A stretch of DNA of 39,186 nucleotides from a virus (IMGVR_UViG_3300045988_093233:1-39186); one strand, 5' to 3'; shown: positions 7,715 through 34,621, counted from the stretch's first letter. Program-made: numbers and translations. The notes: a model not told the origin generated them from the letters alone.

Positions 7715-7730
7715 TTTTTTGGAGGAAGTA

Positions 7731-8081
7731 ATGGACACATATGAACGATTGAAAGATTTATGCAAACAAAAAGGGGTTACGGTTGGTCAAATGGAATCCG
7801 ATAACGAAATTACAAGAGGCAATGCGAACAAATGGCGGAACTCGATGCCAAATCCTAAAATGTTAATGAGATTATCAGAATACTTCGGTGTATCTACTGA
7901 TTATATTCTTACCGGTGTAGATAGCGGTGCATCTAAATATAGCTATTATGACGATGAGACGGAACAGATCGCAAGAGAACTTCAGAAGAACAAAGAACTA
8001 CGGGCAATCTTTGACGTGGCAAAGGGAATGTCTAAAGAGCGCTTGGACGCTTTTTATAACTTATTAAAAGACTTGAAATGA
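7731..8081 (+). CDS. CI-like XRE-family repressor
   Basis: GGAGG RBS 5 nt before ATG 7731. HTH region is LCKQKGVTVGQMESDNEITRGNANKWRNS...LSEYFGVSTDYILTG. Confidence 0.8.
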   Translation: MDTYERLKDLCKQKGVTVGQMESDNEITRGNANKWRNSMPNPKMLMRLSEYFGVSTDYILTGVDSGASKYSYYDDETEQIARELQKNKELRAIFDVAKGMSKERLDAFYNLLKDLK

Positions 8082-8337: not shown

Positions 8338-9174
8338 ATGAAAAAGGCTTTATCATTTATTTTATCTGTTTTCATAACGATATCAATGACAACTCCAGCT
8401 TATGGATATGGGCTGGAAAAACCAAACATAACATACATAGAATCGGACGGAAACTGCGTTTACATTGAATGGACTAATATTTATGGCGCCGAAATATACA
8501 ACGTATATCGTTCTGAAACTAACAAGTATGACTATGAATTTATAGACACAGCAACTAGCAATTCCTATTTTGATTCAAACGTAGAATATGGAAAAAGGTA
8601 TTATTACCAAGTCCAAGGGGTGAGCACCACAAGTTTTAGTGATCCAAGTGATTCTAAATCTGCAAAAATTGTATGGACTGATAAGCATTTCCCTGTTAAT
8701 GATTTGGGCAGACCGGAACTTACTACATTTACGGACGAAGATCAAGACTGTATATGGCTTCTTTGGGACGAGATCGAAGGAGCAAATGTATATTACATAT
8801 ATAGGTCAACCTCAAAAAACGGACCATACGAGTTAAAATATTTTGAAGATGAAAGCGTACTAACGTTTGATAAAAACATTAAAAAGAATAAACGATACTA
8901 TTACAAGGTTCAAGCCTTATATTTTGATGAAGAGAATGGGACTGTGCTAGGCGGAAAGCCTAGTTTGTGGAGATCTGATATAATCACAAGCAAAAGAATT
9001 GTAAAAAAATCAACCAAAACTGTATCAAAGCCCGTTAGTCAAACAGTGTACGTCACAAGAACAGGTTCAAAATATCACCGATATGGTTGCCAGTATTTAA
9101 GACAAAGCTGCTATTCTATGAGCAAATCTGATGCAAAAGCGCAAGGATATACAGCTTGTTCAAGGTGTTGGTGA
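8338..9174 (+). CDS. Secreted/lipoprotein-like protein with two FN3-like repeats and a C-terminal Cys-rich metal-binding tail
   Basis: Signal peptide MKKALSFILSVFITISMTTPAYG. Internal duplication (YNVYRSETNK...KRYYYQVQG and YYIYRSTSKN...KRYYYKVQA). C-terminus is GSKYHRYGCQYL...GYTACSRCW. Confidence 0.65.
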   Translation: MKKALSFILSVFITISMTTPAYGYGLEKPNITYIESDGNCVYIEWTNIYGAEIYNVYRSETNKYDYEFIDTATSNSYFDSNVEYGKRYYYQVQGVSTTSFSDPSDSKSAKIVWTDKHFPVNDLGRPELTTFTDEDQDCIWLLWDEIEGANVYYIYRSTSKNGPYELKYFEDESVLTFDKNIKKNKRYYYKVQALYFDEENGTVLGGKPSLWRSDIITSKRIVKKSTKTVSKPVSQTVYVTRTGSKYHRYGCQYLRQSCYSMSKSDAKAQGYTACSRCW

Positions 9175-9175
9175 T

Positions 9176-10213
9176 ATGGAATACATAAGAAAAACATTTA
9201 CCTTTGAGGGTAAACGGTACACTGTCAGAGGAAAAACTGAAAAAGAAGCCATTATGAAGATGGCGAATAAACTGCGGGATTTGGAGGAAGGCAGCGTTGT
9301 CATATCGGGGAATACTTCGGTAAAAGATTGGGCATTGAAGTGCGTGGAAACATACAAGACCAACCAAGCTGATGCTACAAGAAAAACCTATTTGGAAAAA
9401 ATGAATTCTGTCATTTTTACGAAAATTGGAAGCAGGACACTAAAATCAATAAAACCTTTTGACGTGCAAAATGTGATGAATTCTTTGCAAGGTTACTCGA
9501 AAGCCTACATATCCGATATTTATCAAATGCTTAGGTTTATTTTTTCAAAAGCAAAAACAAACAAACTGATTGCTGACGATCCAACGCTAGATTTACAGAA
9601 ACCAAAAGGAACAAAAAAGAACCGTCGTGCGCTCACAGAAAGTGAAGAATACCATTTTCTAAAAGTGTGTGAGGAAAGTGACAGGTTTTTGGTGTTCATG
9701 TTAATGTATTATTGCAGCTGTAGAACGTCAGAAGCAATCAACATTATGGGAAAAGATATTGTGGCAATTACAGAAAACGGAGAGAAGTACAACGTATTGC
9801 ATATAAGGGGAACAAAAAGCGGAAATGCTGACAGAAAGGTCCCTCTTCCGGATGTTTTATACAATCGAATAAAAAACACGCCTAAATTCAATTACGTTGC
9901 AACTGACACCAAAGGTAACAAGTATACAAAATCAAGCCTTAAATGTGCGCTAAATGCTCTACGCCGCGAAATGAACATCTCAATGGGGTGTAAGGTTTTT
10001 CGGAATGAACTTATTCAACCGCACCCTTTGGCGGATGATTTTGTTCCATACTGCTTGCGTCACACCTATTGTTCAAACCTATGCAAAAAAGGAGTGGATA
10101 TAAGAGTTGCGCAATACTTAATGGGACATTCGGACATTAGGCTGACAGCAAACATATATACACATACGGACAACTCTGCTATTGTGGATGCAGCAAAAAA
10201 AATGAGTGTGTGA
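9176..10213 (+). CDS. int: Tyrosine integrase
   Basis: N-terminal arm-binding-like FEGKRYTVRGKTEKEA. C-terminal catalytic pattern is ...CLRHTYCSNLCKKGVDIRVAQYLMGHSDIRLTANIYTH. ATG 9176 was chosen because the 9131 start overlaps the upstream gene. Confidence 0.9.
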   Translation: MEYIRKTFTFEGKRYTVRGKTEKEAIMKMANKLRDLEEGSVVISGNTSVKDWALKCVETYKTNQADATRKTYLEKMNSVIFTKIGSRTLKSIKPFDVQNVMNSLQGYSKAYISDIYQMLRFIFSKAKTNKLIADDPTLDLQKPKGTKKNRRALTESEEYHFLKVCEESDRFLVFMLMYYCSCRTSEAINIMGKDIVAITENGEKYNVLHIRGTKSGNADRKVPLPDVLYNRIKNTPKFNYVATDTKGNKYTKSSLKCALNALRREMNISMGCKVFRNELIQPHPLADDFVPYCLRHTYCSNLCKKGVDIRVAQYLMGHSDIRLTANIYTHTDNSAIVDAAKKMSV

Positions 10214-10216
10214 CGC

Positions 10217-10228
10217 TTGGTGTGACAC
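10217..10228 (+). repeat. TTGGTGTGACAC motif, left of the att core (putative integrase arm-type site)
   Basis: The same 12-mer occurs twice in tandem at 10418-10441. Confidence 0.5.
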
Positions 10229-10263
10229 TAAAGGGTTAAACCGTTGAAAAATAGCCATTTCTT

Positions 10264-10314
10264 ACCGCGTTCGCAACGCAGAGGTCAAGGGTTCGATCCC
10301 CTCATCGTCCACCA
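10264..10314 (+). other. 3' portion of a tRNA gene (T-arm, acceptor 3' strand, CCA): candidate attP core
   Basis: ...GGTTCGATCCCCTCATCGTCCACCA has a canonical T-loop. No matching 5' acceptor strand or D-arm lies upstream, so this is a fragment. Confidence 0.7.
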
Positions 10315-10321
10315 TAACAAA

Positions 10322-10356
10322 ACCCTTGGAATTTCAATGTTTCCAAGGGTTTTTTC
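10322..10356 (+). terminator. Rho-independent terminator after int / tRNA fragment
   Basis: ACCCTTGGAA ... TTCCAAGGGT stem followed by TTTTTT. Confidence 0.75.
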
Positions 10357-10417
10357 TTGACTTATTTTTGTAAATAATTTCAAATTTTAAGGCAAAAAAG
10401 GTGCTGTTTAGTGGTAT

Positions 10418-10441
10418 TTGGTGTGACACTTGGTGTGACAC
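10418..10441 (+). repeat. Two tandem TTGGTGTGACAC motifs, right of the att core
   Basis: Exact copies at 10418-10429 and 10430-10441. Confidence 0.5.
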
Positions 10442-10466
10442 TTTTTGCTTAGCATTTTTTATAAAA

Positions 10467-27616: not shown

Positions 27617-29287
27617 TTAAAAAACAGCCTGTTGGGCTGCTTCTTGACTGAATAATTGTTGTTGTACGAGTGCGATCGCGTCCTCTTGCGGAATTCCTTG
27701 AGACATTAAGTCTAGCACTTGTCTTGCGAAGTTTTCTCCGCTTTGTGCTTGCTGTTTCTGCATCATCGCTTCGCGCTTTGCAAGCATTGACCTTAATTGC
27801 CCTTTAGGGACCGGGCCATTGTCCGGCGCGAGGTCTGCATATTCCTGCAAAGATAACTGCTGACGGTCAAACATGTTGTCAAGCCACTGCTGATTAGAAA
27901 GCTTCGTCCACTGGTTATCCTGTGAAACGTCAATCCTAACCGTAGGCTTCAGATCTTGCAACTGCTGTTGGTCGATTAAAGTCTGCACTTCTTCGCCCAT
28001 ATCGTTTGTAGAGGTCACTTCGATTCCCTCCGGATGGTAGGCAACCCACATATCAAACCATAAGAGCGCCACATCTTCAACAAACTGTTTATACCTAGCA
28101 ACATTTTCGTTTAATGTTACCTGTGCGCTGTCTCTGACTGCGATAATCGCTTGCCCTGATGCCTGTTCCGGATTGACATTACCCATAGCGTAATCACTGG
28201 CACCGGCAAGATCTTTTGTGATTTGCAATAAATCGTTTTGCAGACTATTCGCATCGCTTGATATGTTTGTTGCGTTGAGGTAGGAAACTTGTTGGGAAAC
28301 AGACTGTGCACCGCCGCCGCTGACCTCAATCGGCTTTCCAACTGTGTCTAAGTCCTCCGGATTCTGAACGGTCGAAGAATCATAGGCAATTCTAGGGAAC
28401 GCACAAAGCTTGACTGTGATTGCGCGTCTTGCAGCTGTTTTATTTAACTCCAGTTGGTTTGGAATCAGTTGAGCGACTTCCGAAACACCTCTAGCGTCAT
28501 AAGGAATCGGTCTCCAGATCATTGAACAAATCGGGTACGAATGCAGTCCGGTAACGTCTCCTTGGATTGCATGCATCGGTTCGTAAATGCACTGTGCAGT
28601 AGAACGTGCGACTTTTACAATCCCGTTCTCTTTTGTCATGTAAAGAAGCGATGTGACCTTATTGGAAACCTCATAGTTATTCAATATAACACCATCGTTT
28701 GCATTTGAATTGTCGTCTCCTACAATCAGTTCGATGTCTTTTTTCGGAATACCGTTATCCTTTGCAATTTTTCTGACAGCCTCAACCTCTAATCTCTCAC
28801 GAATGATGATAAACGGCTGCTCTTGAAGATCTGTTATATTCTCATCTCCAAGCAAGATCGACGTGTTCGGCAGAATCTTCGGCGGCATATCGGTTCTGTC
28901 ACTTCCCCAATACGCATATGCGTCTCCTTGAATTGCTGCTGCATTGATTAAATCCCACGTTTTGGAATCCATTTTGGACTTTTCCCAGTTCTTTGCGAAG
29001 TTTTGGTTCAGAAGTTCGTATATCGGCTGTAAATCGCCTCTGTTCTCAATATCAGAGTATTTAGCCGTCATGGAGTTCTGCGAAACGACAGCAACCTTGT
29101 ACTGAACAATCGGCAGGATAAAATTGAAAATCGGAAGCTCTTCACCTCCGGTATTACATCCGACCCACTGATTGCCAATATAGAAGTTCCAGTTTCGCTC
29201 TGTTTTCTTGACAAGACCTTTTTTATCAAGATAATCTTTGCATTTTTGGTACTTTTGCCATATTTTGGTGTAAACTTTATCTTGCAT
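27617..29287 (-). CDS. Portal protein
   Basis: 556 aa, lying between the terminase and the scaffold. Confidence 0.7.
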   Translation of the reverse strand: MQDKVYTKIWQKYQKCKDYLDKKGLVKKTERNWNFYIGNQWVGCNTGGEELPIFNFILPIVQYKVAVVSQNSMTAKYSDIENRGDLQPIYELLNQNFAKNWEKSKMDSKTWDLINAAAIQGDAYAYWGSDRTDMPPKILPNTSILLGDENITDLQEQPFIIIRERLEVEAVRKIAKDNGIPKKDIELIVGDDNSNANDGVILNNYEVSNKVTSLLYMTKENGIVKVARSTAQCIYEPMHAIQGDVTGLHSYPICSMIWRPIPYDARGVSEVAQLIPNQLELNKTAARRAITVKLCAFPRIAYDSSTVQNPEDLDTVGKPIEVSGGGAQSVSQQVSYLNATNISSDANSLQNDLLQITKDLAGASDYAMGNVNPEQASGQAIIAVRDSAQVTLNENVARYKQFVEDVALLWFDMWVAYHPEGIEVTSTNDMGEEVQTLIDQQQLQDLKPTVRIDVSQDNQWTKLSNQQWLDNMFDRQQLSLQEYADLAPDNGPVPKGQLRSMLAKREAMMQKQQAQSGENFARQVLDLMSQGIPQEDAIALVQQQLFSQEAAQQAVF

Positions 29288-29539
29288 TTATAACTCCTTT
29301 TGCCCTTTGGAAGAACCGTCGTAATTATTTACATTTTCATACAGTGTGCTGTAATATTTCCTCTTTTTTTCTGCTTCTTTGTTCTCTTTTGCCTTTTTAA
29401 TCTTCTGTTTTGGCGTTTCCAGCTTGATTTCCGGCTTGTTTGTCTCTCTTGCACCGATGTTATAGCCCTTTATAAAGCAAAAGACGCTCAAAATCGGCGT
29501 CAGTACGGCTAAAATTAGAATTGTAATGTCAGATAACAT
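29288..29539 (-). CDS. Small membrane protein between TerL and portal (83 aa)
   Basis: N-terminal TM (ITILILAVLTPILSVFCFI) and a Lys-rich tail. It abuts the portal start and overlaps the TerL end. Confidence 0.45.
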   Translation of the reverse strand: MLSDITILILAVLTPILSVFCFIKGYNIGARETNKPEIKLETPKQKIKKAKENKEAEKKRKYYSTLYENVNNYDGSSKGQKEL

Positions 29540-30986
29540 GAATTTTGTCTCCTTTGTCGAATCTTTTCCCTTTTTTACGCTTTAGTCCAGGGAAATTTCG
29601 CTCTAAAAACGATTCTTCTTTAATTTTTATCACTTTTGCGTCAGAGTAAATGAATTTATTTAGAATCTGCGACATGCAGTCTACTTGGTCGTCGTTCTTT
29701 CCGTTCGGAAACGCCGCGCATTCATCGACAAAGTCTCCGGTAAATGGTTTATTCTTCGGCAAAAAGCAGTTTCCGCTCTCAATCGTACCAATTACGGCAT
29801 TGACACGAGAAACTTTTCCGCCGTCCGGATTGACTGCGATTATCCCGCCCATATGCGTCCTCAAATGCTTCACAATCGCAGAACCATTTGCCTTGTCCTC
29901 GATGTAGGTTGTCTTGCACATAGGATACATGCCCCTCAACCTTGTAATCTCTCGTATCGTGGACGGCATATCAAGGTGTTTTTTCACTGCGTCAATCAAG
30001 TAAAGGTCAGCATTTGTCTTTCCCCACACTTGAATTGCCACAAAGTCGTTGTCGTCTCCGTCTTTGAACGCCGCATCAACGCTCATCGCCATTTTTTCAA
30101 TATGGGGTAAGGTCTCGTAATACTGCCACCACTCACGCTTGATTATGTTGCCCTCAAGCCCTGTTGGATGCCCTTGGAATAATGCGTTCCATGACCTTGA
30201 ACCACCTAAACTGGTATATGACTTCTTGAAGTCGGCAAGCCAAACATTGTCCTTTCCAATCTCCGGACACAAAGCATCTCCGACTTTTCTGCCTAAAATA
30301 TCATCCGGTTCTGCTTCTAAGGGGATATTGACTACTTTGACGTTTTTCTCTGTCTCAATCAGTCTTCCGGCAAGGTCATCCTCATGCCAGCGCGTCATAA
30401 TCAAAATGATTTTCGCACCGGCAGCTAGTCTTGTCTTATAGGATGAAAGCCATTCATCAAATACTCGATTACGATAACTTTCGGAATCCGCCTCTTGCTG
30501 TGTCTTTACTGGGTCATCGATAATCATGAGGTCGCATCGCCGACCAGTTACACCGGACAAAAGTCCTCTGCTTACCATGCCGCCTCTATGACCTTCAAGT
30601 TCAAACTCTGTCGCATTGGCAGGTGAACCGATTTTCACTCCGAAAACCTCACCGCCGAATTCTTTTATCTTCTGCAAATTGCGTCTGCCGAATTTCTGTG
30701 CAAAATCTTCAGAGTAGGAAATCTCAATCACCGACTTCTCGGGGTTTCTACCAAGATACCAGCTTGGCAGCGTCTCCGTCACTGTTACGGACTTCCCATG
30801 CTGCGGGGGTGTAGACAAAATTAAGATGTCATACGCATGCCCGGTGTCCTCTTCCAAAAAATCTTGCACCGTATCGCACAAAAAACGGTGGAATTTGCTC
30901 ACTTTATAGCCGTTATTGGTGTGTTTTACATACGCGCAGTAATCCGTCCTTAAAACGTCTCTATAGAGCCTTAAAACATCATTCAT
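29529..30986 (-). CDS. terL: Terminase large subunit
   Basis: Walker A-like LSTPPQHGKS, Walker B CDLMIIDDP, MTRWHEDDLAGRL, and a C-terminal nuclease-like ...NDDQVDC. Confidence 0.9.
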   Translation of the reverse strand: MNDVLRLYRDVLRTDYCAYVKHTNNGYKVSKFHRFLCDTVQDFLEEDTGHAYDILILSTPPQHGKSVTVTETLPSWYLGRNPEKSVIEISYSEDFAQKFGRRNLQKIKEFGGEVFGVKIGSPANATEFELEGHRGGMVSRGLLSGVTGRRCDLMIIDDPVKTQQEADSESYRNRVFDEWLSSYKTRLAAGAKIILIMTRWHEDDLAGRLIETEKNVKVVNIPLEAEPDDILGRKVGDALCPEIGKDNVWLADFKKSYTSLGGSRSWNALFQGHPTGLEGNIIKREWWQYYETLPHIEKMAMSVDAAFKDGDDNDFVAIQVWGKTNADLYLIDAVKKHLDMPSTIREITRLRGMYPMCKTTYIEDKANGSAIVKHLRTHMGGIIAVNPDGGKVSRVNAVIGTIESGNCFLPKNKPFTGDFVDECAAFPNGKNDDQVDCMSQILNKFIYSDAKVIKIKEESFLERNFPGLKRKKGKRFDKGDKIHVI

Positions 30987-32243: not shown

Positions 32244-32641
32244 GTGTAAATATAGTTTTGGTTTACTGTTTAGGGGTGTTCCTGTATAGTTTCCCCCGAT
32301 TCCGGCGCCGTCATATGCATCTGGCCGGCGTTCCTATATATGCCCTATGTCGCGTCTATATTGGTCGGGAATGCAGGATTCGAACCTGCTAAGCTATAAG
32401 CGTCAGATTTACAGTCTGATGTGCATCTCCCGCTGCACCGATTCCCGATATCTACGCGCGGCTGCGTGGATCCGGTAACGCGTCCTGCGCTCCGGGGTTG
32501 TTTGTTGCGGCCGTCATTCCCCCGATCGGTGACGCTGCGCTGTTCTATGTCATCCGCCCGCCTAGGGGGCGGCAATAACCGTTGCCCCCATTGCGGGGGC
32601 GTTGAAAGGAGGTCAAAAAACAATGAAAAACCTGTTTTCCC
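32244..32641 (-). ncRNA. GC-rich structured transcript (~190-nt leader, tRNA-Tyr, ~115-nt trailer)
   Basis: Bounded by an extended -10 promoter and a terminator. No credible ORF or RBS. Many G5/C5 runs form overlapping hairpins. Composition contrasts strongly with the rest of the genome. Confidence 0.45.
32362..32447 (-). tRNA. tRNA-Tyr: tRNA-Tyr (anticodon GTA), type II with long variable arm, encoded CCA
   Basis: Hand fold: acceptor CGGGAAT/ATTCCCG; D-stem GTGC/GCAC; anticodon arm TCAGA-CTGTAAA-TCTGA; 13-nt variable arm; T-arm GCAGG-TTCGAAT-CCTGC; A73; CCA. Total 86 nt. Confidence 0.85.
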
Positions 32642-32647
32642 ACTACT

Positions 32648-32656
32648 ATTGTACCA
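32648..32656 (-). promoter_or_regulatory. Extended -10 promoter (TGgTACAAT) for the tRNA transcript
   Basis: Minus strand reads ...aatgTGgTACAATagtagtg. The -35 is poor. Confidence 0.45.
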
Positions 32657-32750
32657 CATTTCCATAGATTTTTCGTCCGCGGAAAGTCCGCATTTTTCAA
32701 CGGTTTGCGGGTTTTGCCGAAAAAAGTTTGAAAAAAATTAAAAAAAGGTG

Positions 32751-32780
32751 TTGACATCATACCCGACGGTATGCTATGAT
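32751..32780 (+). promoter_or_regulatory. Near-consensus promoter of the plus-strand cassette
   Basis: TTGACA (32751-32756), 18-nt spacer, TATGAT (32775-32780). An A-rich UP-like tract lies upstream. Confidence 0.7.
32758..32774. promoter_or_regulatory. Operator-like inverted repeat CATACC-cgac-GGTATG(C) inside the promoter spacer
   Basis: Perfect 6-bp arms. The same 17-mer recurs at 33307-33323. Confidence 0.6.
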
Positions 32781-32833
32781 GTGGATACAACGAAAGAGCG
32801 GAACGGCAAAAGCCGATCGAAAGGAGAAAGAAA

Positions 32834-33103
32834 ATGAAGAAATACGTTTTTGAGGAGTACAGGGACAAAGCAGGTGTCGGAAGTGAAAAGATTTTCGACA
32901 CAAAAAAAGAAGCTGTTATGTTCGCAGAAAGCGAATGGAAATTCTTAACGGAAAATGACAAAGCGTCATACTTAAACGACGCAAACGGAACTTTTCGCGT
33001 CTACGAATTAGAATTCTCGCAGGAGCAGGCAGAGGATGAAGATTTGATGCTTAGCGAATTGTGGTATGCTGATGTGTGGGACGCATTGAGTGAGGGCAGA
33101 TAA
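32834..33103 (+). CDS. Small acidic protein (89 aa), first gene of the cassette
   Basis: AAGGAGA RBS. Rich in D/E (QEQAEDEDLMLSELWYADVWDALSE). Its stop overlaps the next start (TAATG). Confidence 0.65.
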   Translation: MKKYVFEEYRDKAGVGSEKIFDTKKEAVMFAESEWKFLTENDKASYLNDANGTFRVYELEFSQEQAEDEDLMLSELWYADVWDALSEGR

Positions 33104-33285
33104 TGGGAAAGACATCTAGTGAAGCCAAAGCCCGTTGGAAAAAAGCCAACTACGCAGAATACCATGTGAACTTGCGAAAAGATACCGACAGCGACCTAAT
33201 CGCGTTGGTGGAACGGCGAAAGCACAACGGCGAAAGCACAACGGAGGTTTTCCGGGACGCACTTAGAAAATTAAAAGAGGGTTGA
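33103..33285 (+). CDS. Ribbon-helix-helix (CopG/Arc-like) DNA-binding protein
   Basis: ANYAEYHVNLRKDTDSDLIALVERRKHNGESTTEVFRDALRKL fits a beta-strand / helix / helix RHH layout. Confidence 0.6.
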   Translation: MGKTSSEAKARWKKANYAEYHVNLRKDTDSDLIALVERRKHNGESTTEVFRDALRKLKEG

Positions 33286-33305
33286 CCAAAACCCTCAAAA
33301 ACATA

Positions 33306-33323
33306 GCATACCCGACGGTATGC
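33306..33323. promoter_or_regulatory. Second copy of the palindrome GCATACC-cgac-GGTATGC
   Basis: Identical core to the promoter operator. It follows a GAGGGTT/AACCCTC hairpin at the end of the RHH gene. Confidence 0.5.
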
Positions 33324-33423
33324 TGACCAAATTAAAAGCCCATGTAAAGAGAATTGGGTTAAGTTTTGTGAGGCAAAACGAACTTGTATGTTGTTAGGGG
33401 TTAGAATTTAGGAGGTTCAAAAC

Positions 33424-33441
33424 ATGAGAAGAATTAAATAA
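33424..33441 (+). CDS. Possible 5-codon leader ORF (MRRIK)
   Basis: AGGAGG lies 8 nt upstream of the ATG. Two GC-rich hairpins (33444-33459, 33466-33482) follow before the next gene. Confidence 0.3.
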   Translation: MRRIK

Positions 33442-33513
33442 ACGGCGGCACTAGCCGCCCCGTCTGCCGGTACAAGTCCGGCACTGATGAGCAAGAGCGA
33501 AACGGAGGGAAAA

Positions 33514-33717
33514 ATGAAAATTAGAAGTTTGTACATAACTGCTAGTAGAGCAGTTGCAGCACTTGCAAAAAAGTGGGAAGTGAATCCTGTATGGGTATGG
33601 GATTTGTTTGAATATGAATTCGGTGTTATAAAAGGCTTAGGCAATCTGGTTTCACAAGATGAGATCAACAGGGTTGAAAGCATCATTTGTGAAGAAATCA
33701 TTCATGACAGATCATGA
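33514..33717 (+). CDS. Hypothetical protein (67 aa)
   Basis: GGAGGG RBS before ATG 33514. The in-frame ATG 33487 has no RBS. Confidence 0.55.
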   Translation: MKIRSLYITASRAVAALAKKWEVNPVWVWDLFEYEFGVIKGLGNLVSQDEINRVESIICEEIIHDRS

Positions 33718-33732
33718 GAACGGAGGTACAAA

Positions 33733-33945
33733 ATGAGAAAGGTATTAAGCGCGATTACGGTAATTCTGATGGTTTTTACAATCGCATTAGCTAGCCATGT
33801 ATGGACGATGCACCATCTGAGCATCGAAACCGACGGCGACGGTGACAGCGCATTTATCACCTGTGCCGGTCTGACATGGTTCTATGGTATCAACGGCTAT
33901 GCCATAGATGCAGGCGGAAAAATGGTTGATTTTATCTGTGATTGA
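33733..33945 (+). CDS. Small membrane/secreted protein (70 aa)
   Basis: N-terminal hydrophobic segment VLSAITVILMVFTIALA. GGAGG RBS. Confidence 0.6.
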   Translation: MRKVLSAITVILMVFTIALASHVWTMHHLSIETDGDGDSAFITCAGLTWFYGINGYAIDAGGKMVDFICD

Positions 33946-33977
33946 TGATAGAATTACGAAAACAGGAGGACGAAAAG

Positions 33978-34397
33978 ATGAAAATTATGCAAGAAAACGG
34001 AAAGATCGTTATGGACATTACAATCTCGCAACCTCAGAAGAACGGTGATGTATACAAATACATCACAAAGAAACGTTTGGGTGGAAGTGTTACCGAGGAC
34101 GAATTTCTCGGTCTCAATGCCCCGGATATTCTGGTCGAAATATCCATGCCAGAGCTTCAAGGTTCCGAAAAACAAATTGCATGGGCCGAAGACATCAGGA
34201 TGAATATGATTTACAATTTTATGCACGAAAAAATTGAGATGAATGGTTGGGTATCCATGTTAGATCAAGGAAAAGCAATGGGAATCAATACGTATCAGGA
34301 GTTGTTCGAAGCACTGATGAAAGCGAATTTTCCGAAGTTGCTGCAAGAGACAAAAGCAAAAGAGATCATAGAGAATAGATACGCAATAAGGTTTTAG
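33978..34397 (+). CDS. Hypothetical protein (139 aa) with a GSEKQIAWAEDIR motif
   Basis: AGGAGG lies 8 nt before ATG 33978. I could not assign a family. Confidence 0.6.
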   Translation: MKIMQENGKIVMDITISQPQKNGDVYKYITKKRLGGSVTEDEFLGLNAPDILVEISMPELQGSEKQIAWAEDIRMNMIYNFMHEKIEMNGWVSMLDQGKAMGINTYQELFEALMKANFPKLLQETKAKEIIENRYAIRF

Positions 34398-34405
34398 GTG
34401 GGAAA

Positions 34406-34621
34406 ATGAAAAAATATCATGTTGAATACGCAACACCGGAAATGGTAAAAGATCACGGTGGATTACACGATTTGAGTTGGGGAGATATTAGTGATGCGAT
34501 CGACGCTGAAAGCGAAGATGAGGCTATTGAATTAGCGAAGCAGTCACTAATTGATGATGGATATGAAGAGAATATCGAAGATGTTTATTTTCGAGCAAAA
34601 ACTATTGACAAAATTTATTGA
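34406..34621 (+). CDS. Small acidic protein (71 aa)
   Basis: D/E-rich (DAIDAESEDEAIELAKQSLIDDGYEENIEDV). Last ORF of the cassette. Confidence 0.6.
   Translation: MKKYHVEYATPEMVKDHGGLHDLSWGDISDAIDAESEDEAIELAKQSLIDDGYEENIEDVYFRAKTIDKIY

What the first reader, a model, noticed from the sequence alone, without database searches (positions are those of the whole stretch)
32362..32447. Single phage-encoded tRNA-Tyr with non-bacterial identity features (C1:G72, C8) plus a bacterial-type long variable arm
This is the only complete tRNA in the genome. My hand fold gives a convincing cloverleaf with anticodon GTA, a 13-nt variable arm, A73 and an encoded CCA. However, the first acceptor pair is C1:G72. 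Bacterial tRNA-Tyr has G1:C72, while C1:G72 is the archaeal/eukaryal TyrRS identity pair. Position 8 is C rather than the near-universal U. As I recall, phage tRNAs can replace host tRNAs destroyed by anticodon nucleases; I remember examples involving a T5 tRNA-Lys against PARIS and a tRNA-Tyr against a retron effector. A lone, sequence-divergent tRNA-Tyr placed in an accessory island could be a nuclease-resistant substitute. If it is poorly charged, it could instead be a decoy.
Basis: partly seen in the sequence, partly recalled or inferred. Interest (0 to 1): 0.7.

Follow-up and report, generated by a model that had tools for sequence, protein, structure and literature searches.

The report
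Phage tyrosine tRNA with flipped end pair
A temperate gut phage carries one real, conserved but dispensable tyrosine tRNA gene whose first stem pair is inverted (C1:G72). That oddity turns out to be a recurring minority variant among phage tyrosine tRNAs, so it is not evidence of an exotic origin.

Summary
A complete 86-nt tRNA-Tyr(GUA) lies on the minus strand at 32447->32362. It has C1:G72, C8, A73, a 13-nt variable arm and an encoded CCA. It scores 48.4 bits against Rfam tRNA; ARAGORN finds it only below its default threshold. It is the only full tRNA in this roughly 39-kb temperate phage.

Five related IMG/VR phages keep it at the same place with structure-compatible changes. One close relative has lost it.

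The "non-bacterial" reading is overstated:
- C1:G72 with a long arm is published for CPR bacteria.
- I also found it in housekeeping tRNA clusters of Anaerovoracaceae-type gut Firmicutes.
- About 4% of long-arm phage tRNA-Tyr carry it, and 1:72 flips recur between near-identical phage tRNAs.
- C8 occurs in about 23% of phage tRNA-Tyr.

The anticodon stem-loop is canonical, and the phage encodes no TyrRS.

The host is an uncultured gut Clostridia lineage, identified through the attB tRNA-Ala(CGC). I could not recover its tRNA-Tyr, so host matching, supply and anti-defence roles remain unresolved.

Most likely this is an ordinary accessory elongator tRNA charged by the host TyrRS. It is a new member of a known kind, of moderate interest.

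The parts
32362..32447 (-). tRNA-Tyr(GUA), type II, 86 nt including the encoded CCA (32364-32362). It has C1:G72, C8, A73 and a 13-nt variable arm; the anticodon is at 32412-32410.
   Evidence: Rfam RF00005 at 48.4 bits. ARAGORN -ps calls the same ends. The MFE fold is the cloverleaf. Conserved in 5 related phage contigs.
32211..32243 (-). Intrinsic-terminator-like hairpin (AGACAGCUCUAUACAGGCUGUCU followed by UUUUUU), about 120 nt downstream of the tRNA 3' end and upstream of the packaging genes.
   Evidence: Consensus scan. The sequence is conserved in L001, L081 and L002. Function is inferred, not shown.
32448..32620 (-). G+C-rich conserved intergenic stretch 5' of the tRNA. It is either the leader of the tRNA transcript or a regulatory region, and it contains two stable hairpins. 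It is retained in the relative that lost the tRNA.
   Evidence: Alignment and sequence; fold with z=-2.1; no Rfam family matched. Its role is unknown.
32756..32785 (-). Weak sigma-70-like promoter candidate (TCCACA-18-TATGAT, 9 of 12 matches). It is the only candidate found on the tRNA strand upstream of the tRNA.
   Evidence: Consensus scan only; uncertain.

Best explanation
This is a genuine, accessory, phage-encoded elongator tRNA-Tyr(GUA) of the bacterial long-variable-arm type.

Proposed mechanism: the gene is transcribed from the intergenic region just upstream of the packaging and late operon. The transcript is processed to the 86-nt form, with CCA already encoded. It is then charged by the host's TyrRS; the phage encodes none. 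The charged tRNA adds Tyr-decoding capacity while the phage makes its proteins.

The inverted first pair (C1:G72) and C8 are recurrent, tolerated variants of phage tRNA-Tyr. They are not marks of archaeal or eukaryal ancestry.

Shown here: the gene, its fold, its conservation and its dispensability; the temperate lifestyle of the phage; and the wider distribution of C1:G72 and C8.

Inferred, not shown: expression, charging, and the benefit to the phage. That benefit could be meeting demand or topping up a depleted tRNA-Tyr pool.
For: - **Detection.** The tRNA model match is well above threshold, and two programs agree on the ends.
- **Identity elements.** Every experimentally validated bacterial Tyr determinant is present: A73, G34, U35 and the long variable arm (PMC9976931 Table 1; PMC5370408). 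G18G19 and the T-loop are canonical.
- **Conservation.** Six phage genomes (TerL 88-100% aa identity) keep the tRNA about 1.4 kb upstream of TerL. It has only 0-3 substitutions, all in loops or pair-preserving (A51G gives G.U; a variable-arm A>G gives U.G). The immediate 5' flank diverges freely.
- **Dispensability.** A close relative, L002 (TerL 94%), retains only a 13-nt remnant, so the gene is accessory.
- **Charging.** No TyrRS of either type is encoded in the window (tblastn).
- **C1:G72 is not unique.** About 4% of long-arm phage tRNA-Tyr have it. The flip recurs within phage tRNA families: L281 and L396 share 98% body identity and have related flanks. It occurs in a Nocardia prophage tRNA array (L192), while the chromosomal tRNA-Tyr of another species of the genus, N. 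farcinica, is G1:C72.
- **Tolerance by bacterial-type enzymes.** The bacterial-type TyrRSs of human mitochondria and the Plasmodium apicoplast are indifferent to the 1:72 pair (PMC9976931; PMC6310243 Table 1).
- **Demand.** Tyr makes up 4.55% of phage codons against 3.3% in an 18-gene host sample.
Against: - ARAGORN at default settings rejects the sequence.
- The lack of cross-charging between bacterial and archaeal/eukaryal Tyr systems is attributed to the 1:72 pair (PMC1934993). A canonical host TyrRS might therefore charge this tRNA poorly.
- The host's own tRNA-Tyr and TyrRS were not recovered.
- Tyr is not among the codons most over-represented in the phage relative to the host. Those are TCA, TTA, ACA, CAA and AAA, so simple codon compensation is a weak rationale.
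- No strong promoter was found next to the gene.
- No expression or charging data exist.
Confidence: 0.55

Rival explanations
1. Anti-defence tRNA. The host or competing elements deplete tRNA-Tyr through a retron-Eco7 PtuAB-like or other tRNA-Tyr-directed nuclease or toxin. The phage copy restores the pool. The changes at the acceptor end and core (C1:G72, C8) might make it a poorer substrate for an enzyme that reads those parts, while it stays chargeable.
For: - There is direct precedent: T5/SP15 tRNA-Tyr rescues phage from retron-Eco7 (PMC11555353).
- A small temperate phage carries a single tRNA whose isotype is not the one codon usage would predict.
- Close relatives differ in presence or absence of the gene.
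- The 1:72 flip recurs in independent phage tRNA-Tyr families, which could reflect selection.
- A conserved 14-codon mini-ORF with tandem Tyr codons, followed by a terminator-like hairpin, lies 175 nt away on the other strand.
Against: - The anticodon stem-loop is canonical (loop CUGUAAA, as in E. coli, Nocardia, Vescimonas and Anaerovoracaceae-type tRNA-Tyr). The documented anticodon-loop escape route (PMC10264068) is therefore absent.
- In the retron-Eco7 case, rescue came from over-supply driven by a strong promoter, and E. coli tRNA-Tyr also rescued. No strong promoter is seen here.
- No tRNA-Tyr-targeting system was identified in the host DNA recovered.
- The mini-ORF persists in L002, which lacks the tRNA.
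Confidence: 0.2
2. Host-matched identity. The host belongs to a bacterial lineage whose own tRNA-Tyr is C1:G72 with a long arm, as in CPR bacteria and Anaerovoracaceae-type Firmicutes. The phage tRNA would then simply follow the local identity rule and be ordinary in every respect.
For: - All 117 cellular hits with a well-paired acceptor stem (of 119 parsed) have C1:G72 with a long arm.
- 43 of the genome loci carry the Anaerovoracaceae-type tRNA-Tyr, from gut or rumen Firmicutes (Emergencia, Lentihominibacter, Mogibacterium, [Eubacterium] infirmum and others). There the gene sits in large housekeeping tRNA clusters.
- The phage comes from human gut metagenomes, and its host is an uncultured Clostridia lineage.
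Against: - The phage tRNA shows no specific similarity to the Anaerovoracaceae-type or CPR tRNA-Tyr beyond generic positions.
- Host contigs are 51-56% G+C, against a mean of 47% for the Anaerovoracaceae-type loci.
- No cultured Anaerovoracaceae appear among the 120 listed homologues (64% identity or more) of a host enzyme; only three of those entries carry a name.
- Relatives of the host encode SpoIIID.
- A representative gut Oscillospiraceae (Vescimonas) has G1:C72.
- None of this is decisive.
Confidence: 0.13
3. Not an active translation substrate. It could be a poorly charged decoy or sponge for a host enzyme, a regulatory or processing element, or a decaying gene on its way to loss.
For: - C1:G72 is held to block cross-charging by canonical bacterial TyrRS (PMC1934993).
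- C8 removes the near-universal U8:A14 contact.
- The score falls below the ARAGORN default threshold.
- The gene has been lost in L002, and the encoded CCA has been lost in L279.
Against: - Conservation across phages down to 88% TerL identity shows only structure-compatible changes.
- A73, the anticodon, the variable arm, the T-loop and G18G19 are all intact.
- C8 is common in phage tRNA-Tyr generally (24 of 106 distinct G1:C72 sequences).
- Loss of an encoded CCA is harmless where a CCA-adding enzyme exists (established knowledge).
Confidence: 0.1
4. Chance cloverleaf, or an att-site remnant of a host tRNA.
For: ARAGORN at default settings finds nothing.
Against: - The Infernal match has E=1.7e-7 over the full model.
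- The gene is full length and conserved.
- The real attP remnant is a different tRNA, Ala(CGC), 22 kb away at 10267-10314, next to the integrase.
Confidence: 0.02

Closest known systems
Bacterial type-II tRNA-Tyr(GUA), e.g. E. coli tyrT/tyrU or the chromosomal tRNA-Tyr of Nocardia farcinica and Vescimonas fastidiosa
   Same: Anticodon loop CUGUAAA, A73, long variable arm with a short stem, canonical T-loop, G18G19 and encoded CCA.
   Different: C1:G72 instead of G1:C72, and C8 instead of U8. The D-stem is 4-5 bp rather than the 3 bp seen in E. coli, Nocardia and Vescimonas tRNA-Tyr.
CPR (Patescibacteria) tRNA-Tyr with C1:G72 that keeps the variable arm, paired with an archaeal/eukaryal-type TyrRS (Mukai et al. 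2017, PMC5370408)
   Same: The same hybrid layout: an archaeal-like first pair plus a bacterial long arm and A73. I re-found these genes, and an archaeal-type TyrRS gene lies in the same 8-kb locus in 7 of them.
   Different: Those are the cell's own tRNAs and come with a matching synthetase. Here the gene is on a phage of a Clostridia host, no TyrRS is encoded, and the sequence is not specifically related to the CPR genes.
T5/SP15 phage tRNA-Tyr that rescues phage from retron-Eco7 PtuAB (Azam et al. 2024, PMC11555353)
   Same: A phage-encoded tRNA-Tyr(GUA) that must work in translation. It sits in a region that some phage isolates lack.
   Different: The T5-like phages are virulent and carry the gene in a tRNA-rich region, expressed from a very strong promoter. 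Here a temperate phage carries a lone tRNA, no strong promoter was found, and no cognate defence is known.
Phage tRNAs that escape anticodon nucleases through anticodon-loop changes (van den Berg et al. 2023, PMC10264068) and T5 tRNA-Lys against PARIS (PMC11464382)
   Same: The concept of a phage tRNA replacing a host tRNA that a defence system destroys.
   Different: The defining feature, a diverged anticodon loop or stem, is absent here; the loop is canonical.
tRNA-dependent lysogeny in temperate mycobacteriophages (PMC10865867)
   Same: A temperate phage that integrates into a host tRNA gene and also carries a tRNA gene.
   Different: attB here is tRNA-Ala(CGC), and attP carries the 48-nt 3' end that rebuilds it. 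The phage tRNA is Tyr, so it does not complement a disrupted attB tRNA.
Archaeal/eukaryal tRNA-Tyr
   Same: C1:G72 and A73.
   Different: Those tRNAs have a short variable loop, whereas this one has a 13-nt arm. There is no sequence evidence of archaeal origin.

Membership tests
tRNA (Rfam RF00005) | Covariance-model score at or above the gathering threshold over the full model | tested here: met
   48.4 bits against a threshold of 29, model positions 1-71. The MFE fold is the cloverleaf.
tRNA (Rfam RF00005) | Conserved core nucleotides U8, A14, G18G19, T54-Psi55-C56 and A58 | tested here: inconclusive
   A14, G18G19 and the UUCGAAU T-loop are present. Position 8 is C, not U. ARAGORN at default settings rejects the sequence. 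C8 is found in about 23% of phage tRNA-Tyr.
Bacterial-type tRNA-Tyr | Anticodon GUA in a 7-nt loop with U33 and a purine at 37 | tested here: met
   The loop is CUGUAAA, and ARAGORN calls Tyr(gta).
Bacterial-type tRNA-Tyr | A73 discriminator and a long variable arm | tested here: met
   A73 is present. The variable region is 13 nt with a 3-bp stem.
Bacterial-type tRNA-Tyr | G1:C72 first pair | tested here: not met
   The first pair is C1:G72 in every register, in two programs, and in all six homologues.
Archaeal/eukaryal-type tRNA-Tyr | C1:G72 with A73 and a short (4-5 nt) variable loop | tested here: not met
   C1:G72 and A73 are present, but the variable region is 13 nt.
CPR-type hybrid Tyr system (Mukai 2017) | C1:G72 tRNA-Tyr with a variable arm, together with an archaeal/eukaryal-type TyrRS in the same genome | tested here: inconclusive
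   The tRNA layout is met. No TyrRS is encoded in the phage. The host TyrRS was not recovered.
Phage anti-defence tRNA (T5 tRNA-Tyr, T5 tRNA-Lys, anticodon-loop escape) | Sequence change at the nuclease recognition site (anticodon loop or stem) relative to the host tRNA | tested here: not met
   The anticodon stem-loop is canonical. The host tRNA itself is unavailable for comparison.
Phage anti-defence tRNA (T5 tRNA-Tyr, T5 tRNA-Lys, anticodon-loop escape) | Strong dedicated promoter or high expression | tested here: inconclusive
   Only a weak 9-of-12 sigma-70-like match lies about 310 nt upstream. There are no expression data.
Phage anti-defence tRNA (T5 tRNA-Tyr, T5 tRNA-Lys, anticodon-loop escape) | Rescue of phage growth on a host carrying a tRNA-Tyr-depleting system | not testable with these tools
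   This needs an experiment.
tRNA-dependent lysogeny | The phage tRNA has the same isotype as the attB tRNA that integration disrupts | tested here: not met
   attB is tRNA-Ala(CGC), and attP restores its 3' end.

The most novel reading that the evidence does not exclude
The inverted first pair could be adaptive. Under this reading, phage tRNA-Tyr genes repeatedly flip G1:C72 to C1:G72. The flipped tRNA would escape a host factor that reads the acceptor end of tRNA-Tyr, such as a nuclease or a tRNA-modifying toxin. It would remain chargeable by bacterial TyrRS through A73, G34/U35 and the long arm.

In this phage the tRNA would work together with the neighbouring conserved 14-codon Tyr-Tyr leader and its terminator/antiterminator. 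Together they would form a module that senses and corrects tRNA-Tyr depletion.
Probability: 0.1. Interest if true: 0.75.

Novelty: new member of a known kind. Interest (0 to 1): 0.4.

Why it matters
Textbook tRNA identity rules say that the 1:72 pair separates bacterial from archaeal/eukaryal tyrosine systems. That rule underlies the orthogonal pairs used for genetic-code expansion.

Three observations here suggest the rule is softer in nature than in E. coli:
- a conserved C1:G72 tRNA-Tyr with a bacterial long arm sits on a Clostridia phage;
- the same layout occurs in about 4% of long-arm phage tRNA-Tyr;
- the layout is the housekeeping tRNA-Tyr of a Firmicutes family.

If hosts with canonical TyrRS charge these tRNAs, they are natural probes of TyrRS tolerance. 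If they do not, the tRNAs have another role, such as escape from a defence system or acting as a decoy.

For this particular phage the practical message is modest. It carries one ordinary-looking accessory tRNA gene whose benefit is still unknown.

Tried and rejected
- **Alternative 5' register giving G1:C72.** Rejected, because Infernal and ARAGORN agree on the ends.
- **attP remnant or tRNA-dependent lysogeny.** Rejected. attP is the 3' end of tRNA-Ala(CGC) at 10267-10314.
- **Phage-encoded TyrRS.** None found by tblastn with M. jannaschii and E. coli TyrRS. The M. jannaschii query was validated by its hits in CPR loci; the E. coli query gave no hit in any locus.
- **Chimera of a tRNA-Pro acceptor and T-arm with a Tyr anticodon.** My recollection of Firmicutes tRNA-Pro suggested this. 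A comparison with 2,780 tRNAs in the held loci showed only generic resemblance.
- **Naming the host.**
  - Integrase homologues led to other phages with other attB tRNAs (Thr, Arg).
  - The attB scan found empty-site contigs.
  - Their genes match only unnamed "Clostridiales/Bacillota bacterium" MAGs.
  - NCBI accession prefixes of relatives (CAZYWO, CBDNUK, CBFFOQ, CAXVQW) match none of the C1:G72 carriers listed.
  - Tetranucleotide similarity only tracked G+C.
  - No tRNA-Ala was available for comparison in the Anaerovoracaceae-type loci.
- **Leader mini-ORFs rich in the cognate codon next to the tRNAs of distant relatives.** The one apparent case (L042/L043, Gln) is the C-terminus of a large protein whose product was not identified.
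- **Annotation of the neighbourhood.** Pfam and PHROG gave essentially nothing for the small ORFs around the tRNA, only two weak PHROG matches of unknown function for the 151-aa ORF. Rfam gave nothing for the leader.
- **Exact-product look-up of TerS.** Not on record.
- **Nearest cultured phages.** None close. There is no megablast hit, and the portal is 25% identical to those of Bacillus phages of the Page/Pascal group.

Full report
**1. Observation**

The stretch 32362-32447 encodes a tRNA on the minus strand. Its sequence is CGGGAAUCGGUGCAGCGGGAGAUGCACAUCAGACUGUAAAUCUGACGCUUAUAGCUUAGCAGGUUCGAAUCCUGCAUUCCCGACCA.

- Rfam's tRNA model matches 32365-32447(-) at 48.4 bits (gathering score 29, E=1.7e-7) over the whole model.
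- ARAGORN at default settings finds no tRNA in the window.
- At 95% of its threshold it calls tRNA-Tyr(gta) at exactly c[32362,32447], and this is the only call in the whole window.
- The minimum-free-energy fold is the cloverleaf, including a 3-bp stem in the variable arm (-28.9 kcal/mol, z=-2.4).

No register gives G1:C72.

**2. The element that carries it**

The window is a roughly 39-kb, 43% G+C temperate phage.

- It has a tyrosine integrase at 9131-10213 and a repressor-like gene at 7719-8081.
- The lysis, tail and head genes, the portal (27617-29287) and TerL (29529-30986) are all on the minus strand.
- It has no close relative among cultured phages.
- Identical or near-identical genomes occur as roughly 39-kb contigs in human-gut assemblies.

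attP lies just after the integrase. Positions 10267-10314 are the 3' 48 nt of a tRNA-Ala(CGC), flanked by GGTGTGACAC arm-type repeats. A metagenome scan for this core found three further phage copies. It also found four empty attB sites that carry the complete tRNA-Ala(CGC), on bacterial contigs of 51-56% G+C.

Genes on these contigs match only unnamed "Clostridiales/Bacillota bacterium" MAG proteins, at 75-76% identity. The exact species cluster has no name. Relatives of the host carry spoIIID. The host is therefore an uncultured gut Clostridia lineage. Its own tRNA-Tyr and TyrRS could not be recovered with the scans left.

**3. Local context**

The tRNA sits in a 600-nt intergenic region between two blocks of genes.

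- On one side is a plus-strand block of six small ORFs of unknown function (32834-34621). It is driven by a near-consensus promoter at 32751-32780.
- On the other side is the minus-strand packaging and late operon.
- A terminator-like hairpin (32243-32221) follows the tRNA.
- Only a weak promoter candidate lies upstream on the tRNA's strand.
- Pfam, PHROG and Rfam add essentially nothing for the neighbours, apart from two weak unknown-function PHROG matches for the 151-aa ORF.

**4. Relatives**

Only five IMG/VR contigs carry this tRNA family (L244/L001, L081, L279, L285, L476). All have it about 1.4 kb upstream of a TerL that is 88-100% identical.

The tRNA differs at 0-3 positions, and C1:G72 and C8 are invariant. 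The observed changes are:
- G9A;
- D-loop changes;
- A51G, which gives G.U;
- a variable-arm loop change plus A>G, which gives U.G.

The 5' flank diverges freely. L279 has lost the encoded CCA.

L002 (TerL 94%) has lost the gene. Only ATCGGTGCAGCGG remains, joined to the 3' flank. The gene is therefore maintained by selection where present, but it is dispensable.

More distant TerL relatives often carry one tRNA of another isotype just upstream of TerL: Leu-UAA, Gln-UUG and an odd Lys-UUU.

**5. How unusual is C1:G72 with a long arm?**

Other phage and bacterial tRNA-Tyr found by BLAST are G1:C72. I then ran a pattern scan for a Tyr anticodon loop, a long arm and G72-A73.

Of 119 parsed cellular hits, 117 have a well-paired acceptor stem, and all 117 have C1:G72. 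They fall into three groups.

- **CPR/Patescibacteria.** This is the case published by Mukai et al. 2017 (PMC5370408). I confirmed an archaeal-type TyrRS gene in the same 8-kb locus as the tRNA in seven loci.
- **Anaerovoracaceae-type gut and rumen Firmicutes, 43 loci.** Taxa include Emergencia, Lentihominibacter, Mogibacterium, [Eubacterium] infirmum, Alterileibacterium, Aminipila and Brotomerdimonas. The gene sits in large housekeeping tRNA clusters. I found no paper in the held library that describes this.
- **A few phage-like tRNA arrays inside bacterial assemblies.** These are from Mycobacterium, Nocardia, Lachnospiraceae and Bacteroidales.

In IMG/VR, the same pattern with either base allowed at position 72 returned 120 hits. 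Of these, 115 were G1:C72 and 5 were C1:G72, or about 4%.

The flip recurs inside phage tRNA families. L281 (CGUAGAG...CUCUACGA) and L396 (GGUAGAG...CUCUACCA) share 98% identity in the tRNA body, and their flanks are 77-92% identical. In all, 14 of 79 distinct C1:G72 sequences have a G1:C72 neighbour at 85% identity or more.

A Nocardia prophage array carries a C1:G72 tRNA-Tyr (L192, N. thailandica). The chromosomal gene of another Nocardia species, N. farcinica, is G1:C72, as is that of the gut Oscillospiraceae Vescimonas.

C8 is also common. It occurs in 24 of 106 distinct G1:C72 phage tRNA-Tyr and in 16 of 74 C1:G72 ones outside this family. Among the cellular C1:G72 genes it occurs in 1 of 117.

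**6. What this means for charging**

The literature attributes the lack of cross-charging between bacterial and archaeal/eukaryal Tyr systems to the 1:72 pair (PMC1934993).

Two points weaken it.
- The experimentally validated bacterial determinants are A73, G34 and U35 plus the long arm, and all are present here (PMC9976931).
- Two bacterial-type TyrRSs, from human mitochondria and the Plasmodium apicoplast, are indifferent to the 1:72 pair.

The phage encodes no TyrRS, so any charging must be done by the host enzyme. The recurrence of flips between closely related phage tRNAs, together with the C1:G72 genes in a Nocardia prophage and in a phage-like Mycobacterium tRNA array, argues that many bacterial TyrRSs tolerate the inversion in a long-arm context. 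The alternative is that such tRNAs serve another purpose. I cannot tell which applies here.

**7. Function**

- **Codon compensation.** Tyr makes up 4.55% of phage codons against 3.3% in a small host sample. The codons most enriched in the phage are TCA, TTA, ACA, CAA and AAA. These match the isotypes carried by distant relatives, not Tyr, so simple codon compensation is weak support.
- **Anti-defence.** The precedents are real (PMC11555353, PMC11464382, PMC10264068). However, the anticodon stem-loop here is canonical. The retron-Eco7 case worked by over-supply from a strong promoter, and I do not see such a promoter here.
- **tRNA-dependent lysogeny.** This is excluded, because attB is tRNA-Ala and attP rebuilds it.
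- **Best reading.** I therefore rate [quoted passage not shown] as most likely (0.55). The rivals are anti-defence (0.2), host-matched identity (0.13) and non-translational roles (0.1).

**8. A lead seen nearby**

Diverging from the tRNA, 175 nt away, is a conserved 14-codon ORF at 32623-32667. Its product is MKNLF[S/A/T][H/Q]YYCTTF[P/L], it has a strong AAGGAGG ribosome-binding site, and it contains tandem Tyr codons.

- It is followed at once by a terminator-like hairpin (32679-32691, then a U-run).
- An overlapping alternative hairpin (32667-32688) could act as an antiterminator.
- This has the layout of a leader-peptide attenuator that would read Tyr-tRNA supply.

The evidence for this is thin. 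The helices are weak, L002 and L476 carry a mismatch in the putative antiterminator, and L002 keeps the ORF without the tRNA. A search for cognate-codon leaders next to the tRNAs of distant relatives found none.

**9. Verdict**

The feature is real and was correctly described. Its "non-bacterial" flavour is a recurrent minority state of phage tRNA-Tyr, and of some bacterial tRNA-Tyr. Its specific benefit is unresolved because the host's Tyr system could not be retrieved. It is a new member of a known kind, of moderate interest.

Noticed in passing
Genome loci L087-L206 (43 of them, e.g. L105 Emergencia timonensis, L109 Lentihominibacter faecis, L160 [Eubacterium] infirmum, L150 Alterileibacterium massiliense, L188 Brotomerdimonas butyrica): A family of gut and rumen Firmicutes (Anaerovoracaceae / Family XIII type) has a tRNA-Tyr with C1:G72, A73 and a long variable arm (CGAGGGAUUCCCGAGUGGCCAAAGGGGGCGGACUGUAAAUCCGU...CUCCCUCGACCA). 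The gene is embedded in large housekeeping tRNA clusters. The held literature describes this only for CPR bacteria. The TyrRS type of these Firmicutes is unknown.
   Followed up: partly
L090, L100, L145, L156, L165, L175, L182 (CPR/Patescibacteria genome loci): An archaeal-type TyrRS (34-41% identical to M. jannaschii TyrRS by tblastn) is encoded in the same 8-kb locus as the C1:G72 long-arm tRNA-Tyr (within 0.1-1.8 kb in the loci checked). This confirms Mukai et al. 2017.
   Followed up: yes
Viral loci L281/L280/L258 vs L396; L303 vs L424; L208 vs L447; L274 vs L393; L284 vs L434: Near-identical phage tRNA-Tyr genes (L281 and L396, 98% identical in the tRNA body) differ by an exact inversion of the 1:72 pair. 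In that group the phage flanks are also related (77-92% nt identity). The other pairs listed are 87-94% identical in the tRNA body, show the same inversion, and share little beyond the tRNA. About 4% of long-arm tRNA-Tyr in IMG/VR are C1:G72.
   Followed up: partly
window 32623-32697 (+): A conserved 14-codon mini-ORF (MKNLFSHYYCTTFP) has a strong ribosome-binding site and tandem Tyr codons. It is followed by a terminator-like hairpin and an overlapping alternative hairpin, and it diverges from the tRNA-Tyr gene. It is also present in L002, which lacks the tRNA. It may be a Tyr-tRNA-sensing leader, but this is untested.
   Followed up: partly
window 10214-10450 (+); host loci L336, L338, L339, L341: attP contains the 3' 48 nt of tRNA-Ala(CGC) (10267-10314), its own terminator hairpin, and GGTGTGACAC arm-type repeats. 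Empty attB sites with the full tRNA-Ala(CGC) occur on 51-56% G+C human-gut contigs of an uncultured Clostridia lineage. The phage is about 10 points lower in G+C than its host.
   Followed up: yes
L009 9880-9956, L012 3420-3495, L031 9661-9734, L033 7111-7184, L042 13610-13685, L043 4207-4282: Phages related through TerL (47-61% aa identity) each carry one tRNA near TerL, mostly within a few hundred nt upstream (downstream in L042/L043). They are Leu(UAA) or Gln(UUG), isotypes that read codons (TTA, CAA) among the most over-represented in this phage relative to its host. L012's tRNA-Gln has an A1.C72 mismatch.
   Followed up: partly
L074 3774-3860, L075 6683-6769, L025 824-901: These are odd tRNA-like genes in related phages, lying upstream of TerL (about 3.2 kb upstream in L074 and L075, directly upstream in L025). 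L074 and L075 each carry an 87-nt 'tRNA-Lys(UUU)' with an 8-bp acceptor stem, a long variable arm and no CCA. L025 carries a tRNA with a 6-nt anticodon loop (54 bits in Rfam).
   Followed up: no
L009 7410-7464 (-): A type-P5 twister ribozyme (RF02684, 58.1 bits against a gathering score of 37.6) in a related phage contig.
   Followed up: no
window 32291-32300 and 32517-32526 (+), plus similar copies in L002 8150-8400: A 10-nt direct repeat, TTCCCCCGAT (ATCGGGGGAA on the tRNA strand), brackets the tRNA gene. Variants recur in the region of relatives. The L279 deletion after A73 ends at one such copy. These may be protein-binding or recombination-prone sites near the packaging genes.
   Followed up: no
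L330 7481-11424: A phage with a 62%-identical integrase, the same arm-repeat type and a tRNA-Arg attP carries a diversity-generating retroelement (a reverse transcriptase gene, with a gene for an Mtd_N-domain protein about 2.5 kb away).
   Followed up: no
L339 7133-8605 (-), L342 8703-9746 (-): The host gene next to attB encodes a protein with Schlafen AlbA_2, HATPase_c_4 and Fic-like_C domains. It looks like a regulator rather than a Schlafen nuclease. A QueT queuosine-precursor transporter lies about 7 kb from attB.
   Followed up: no
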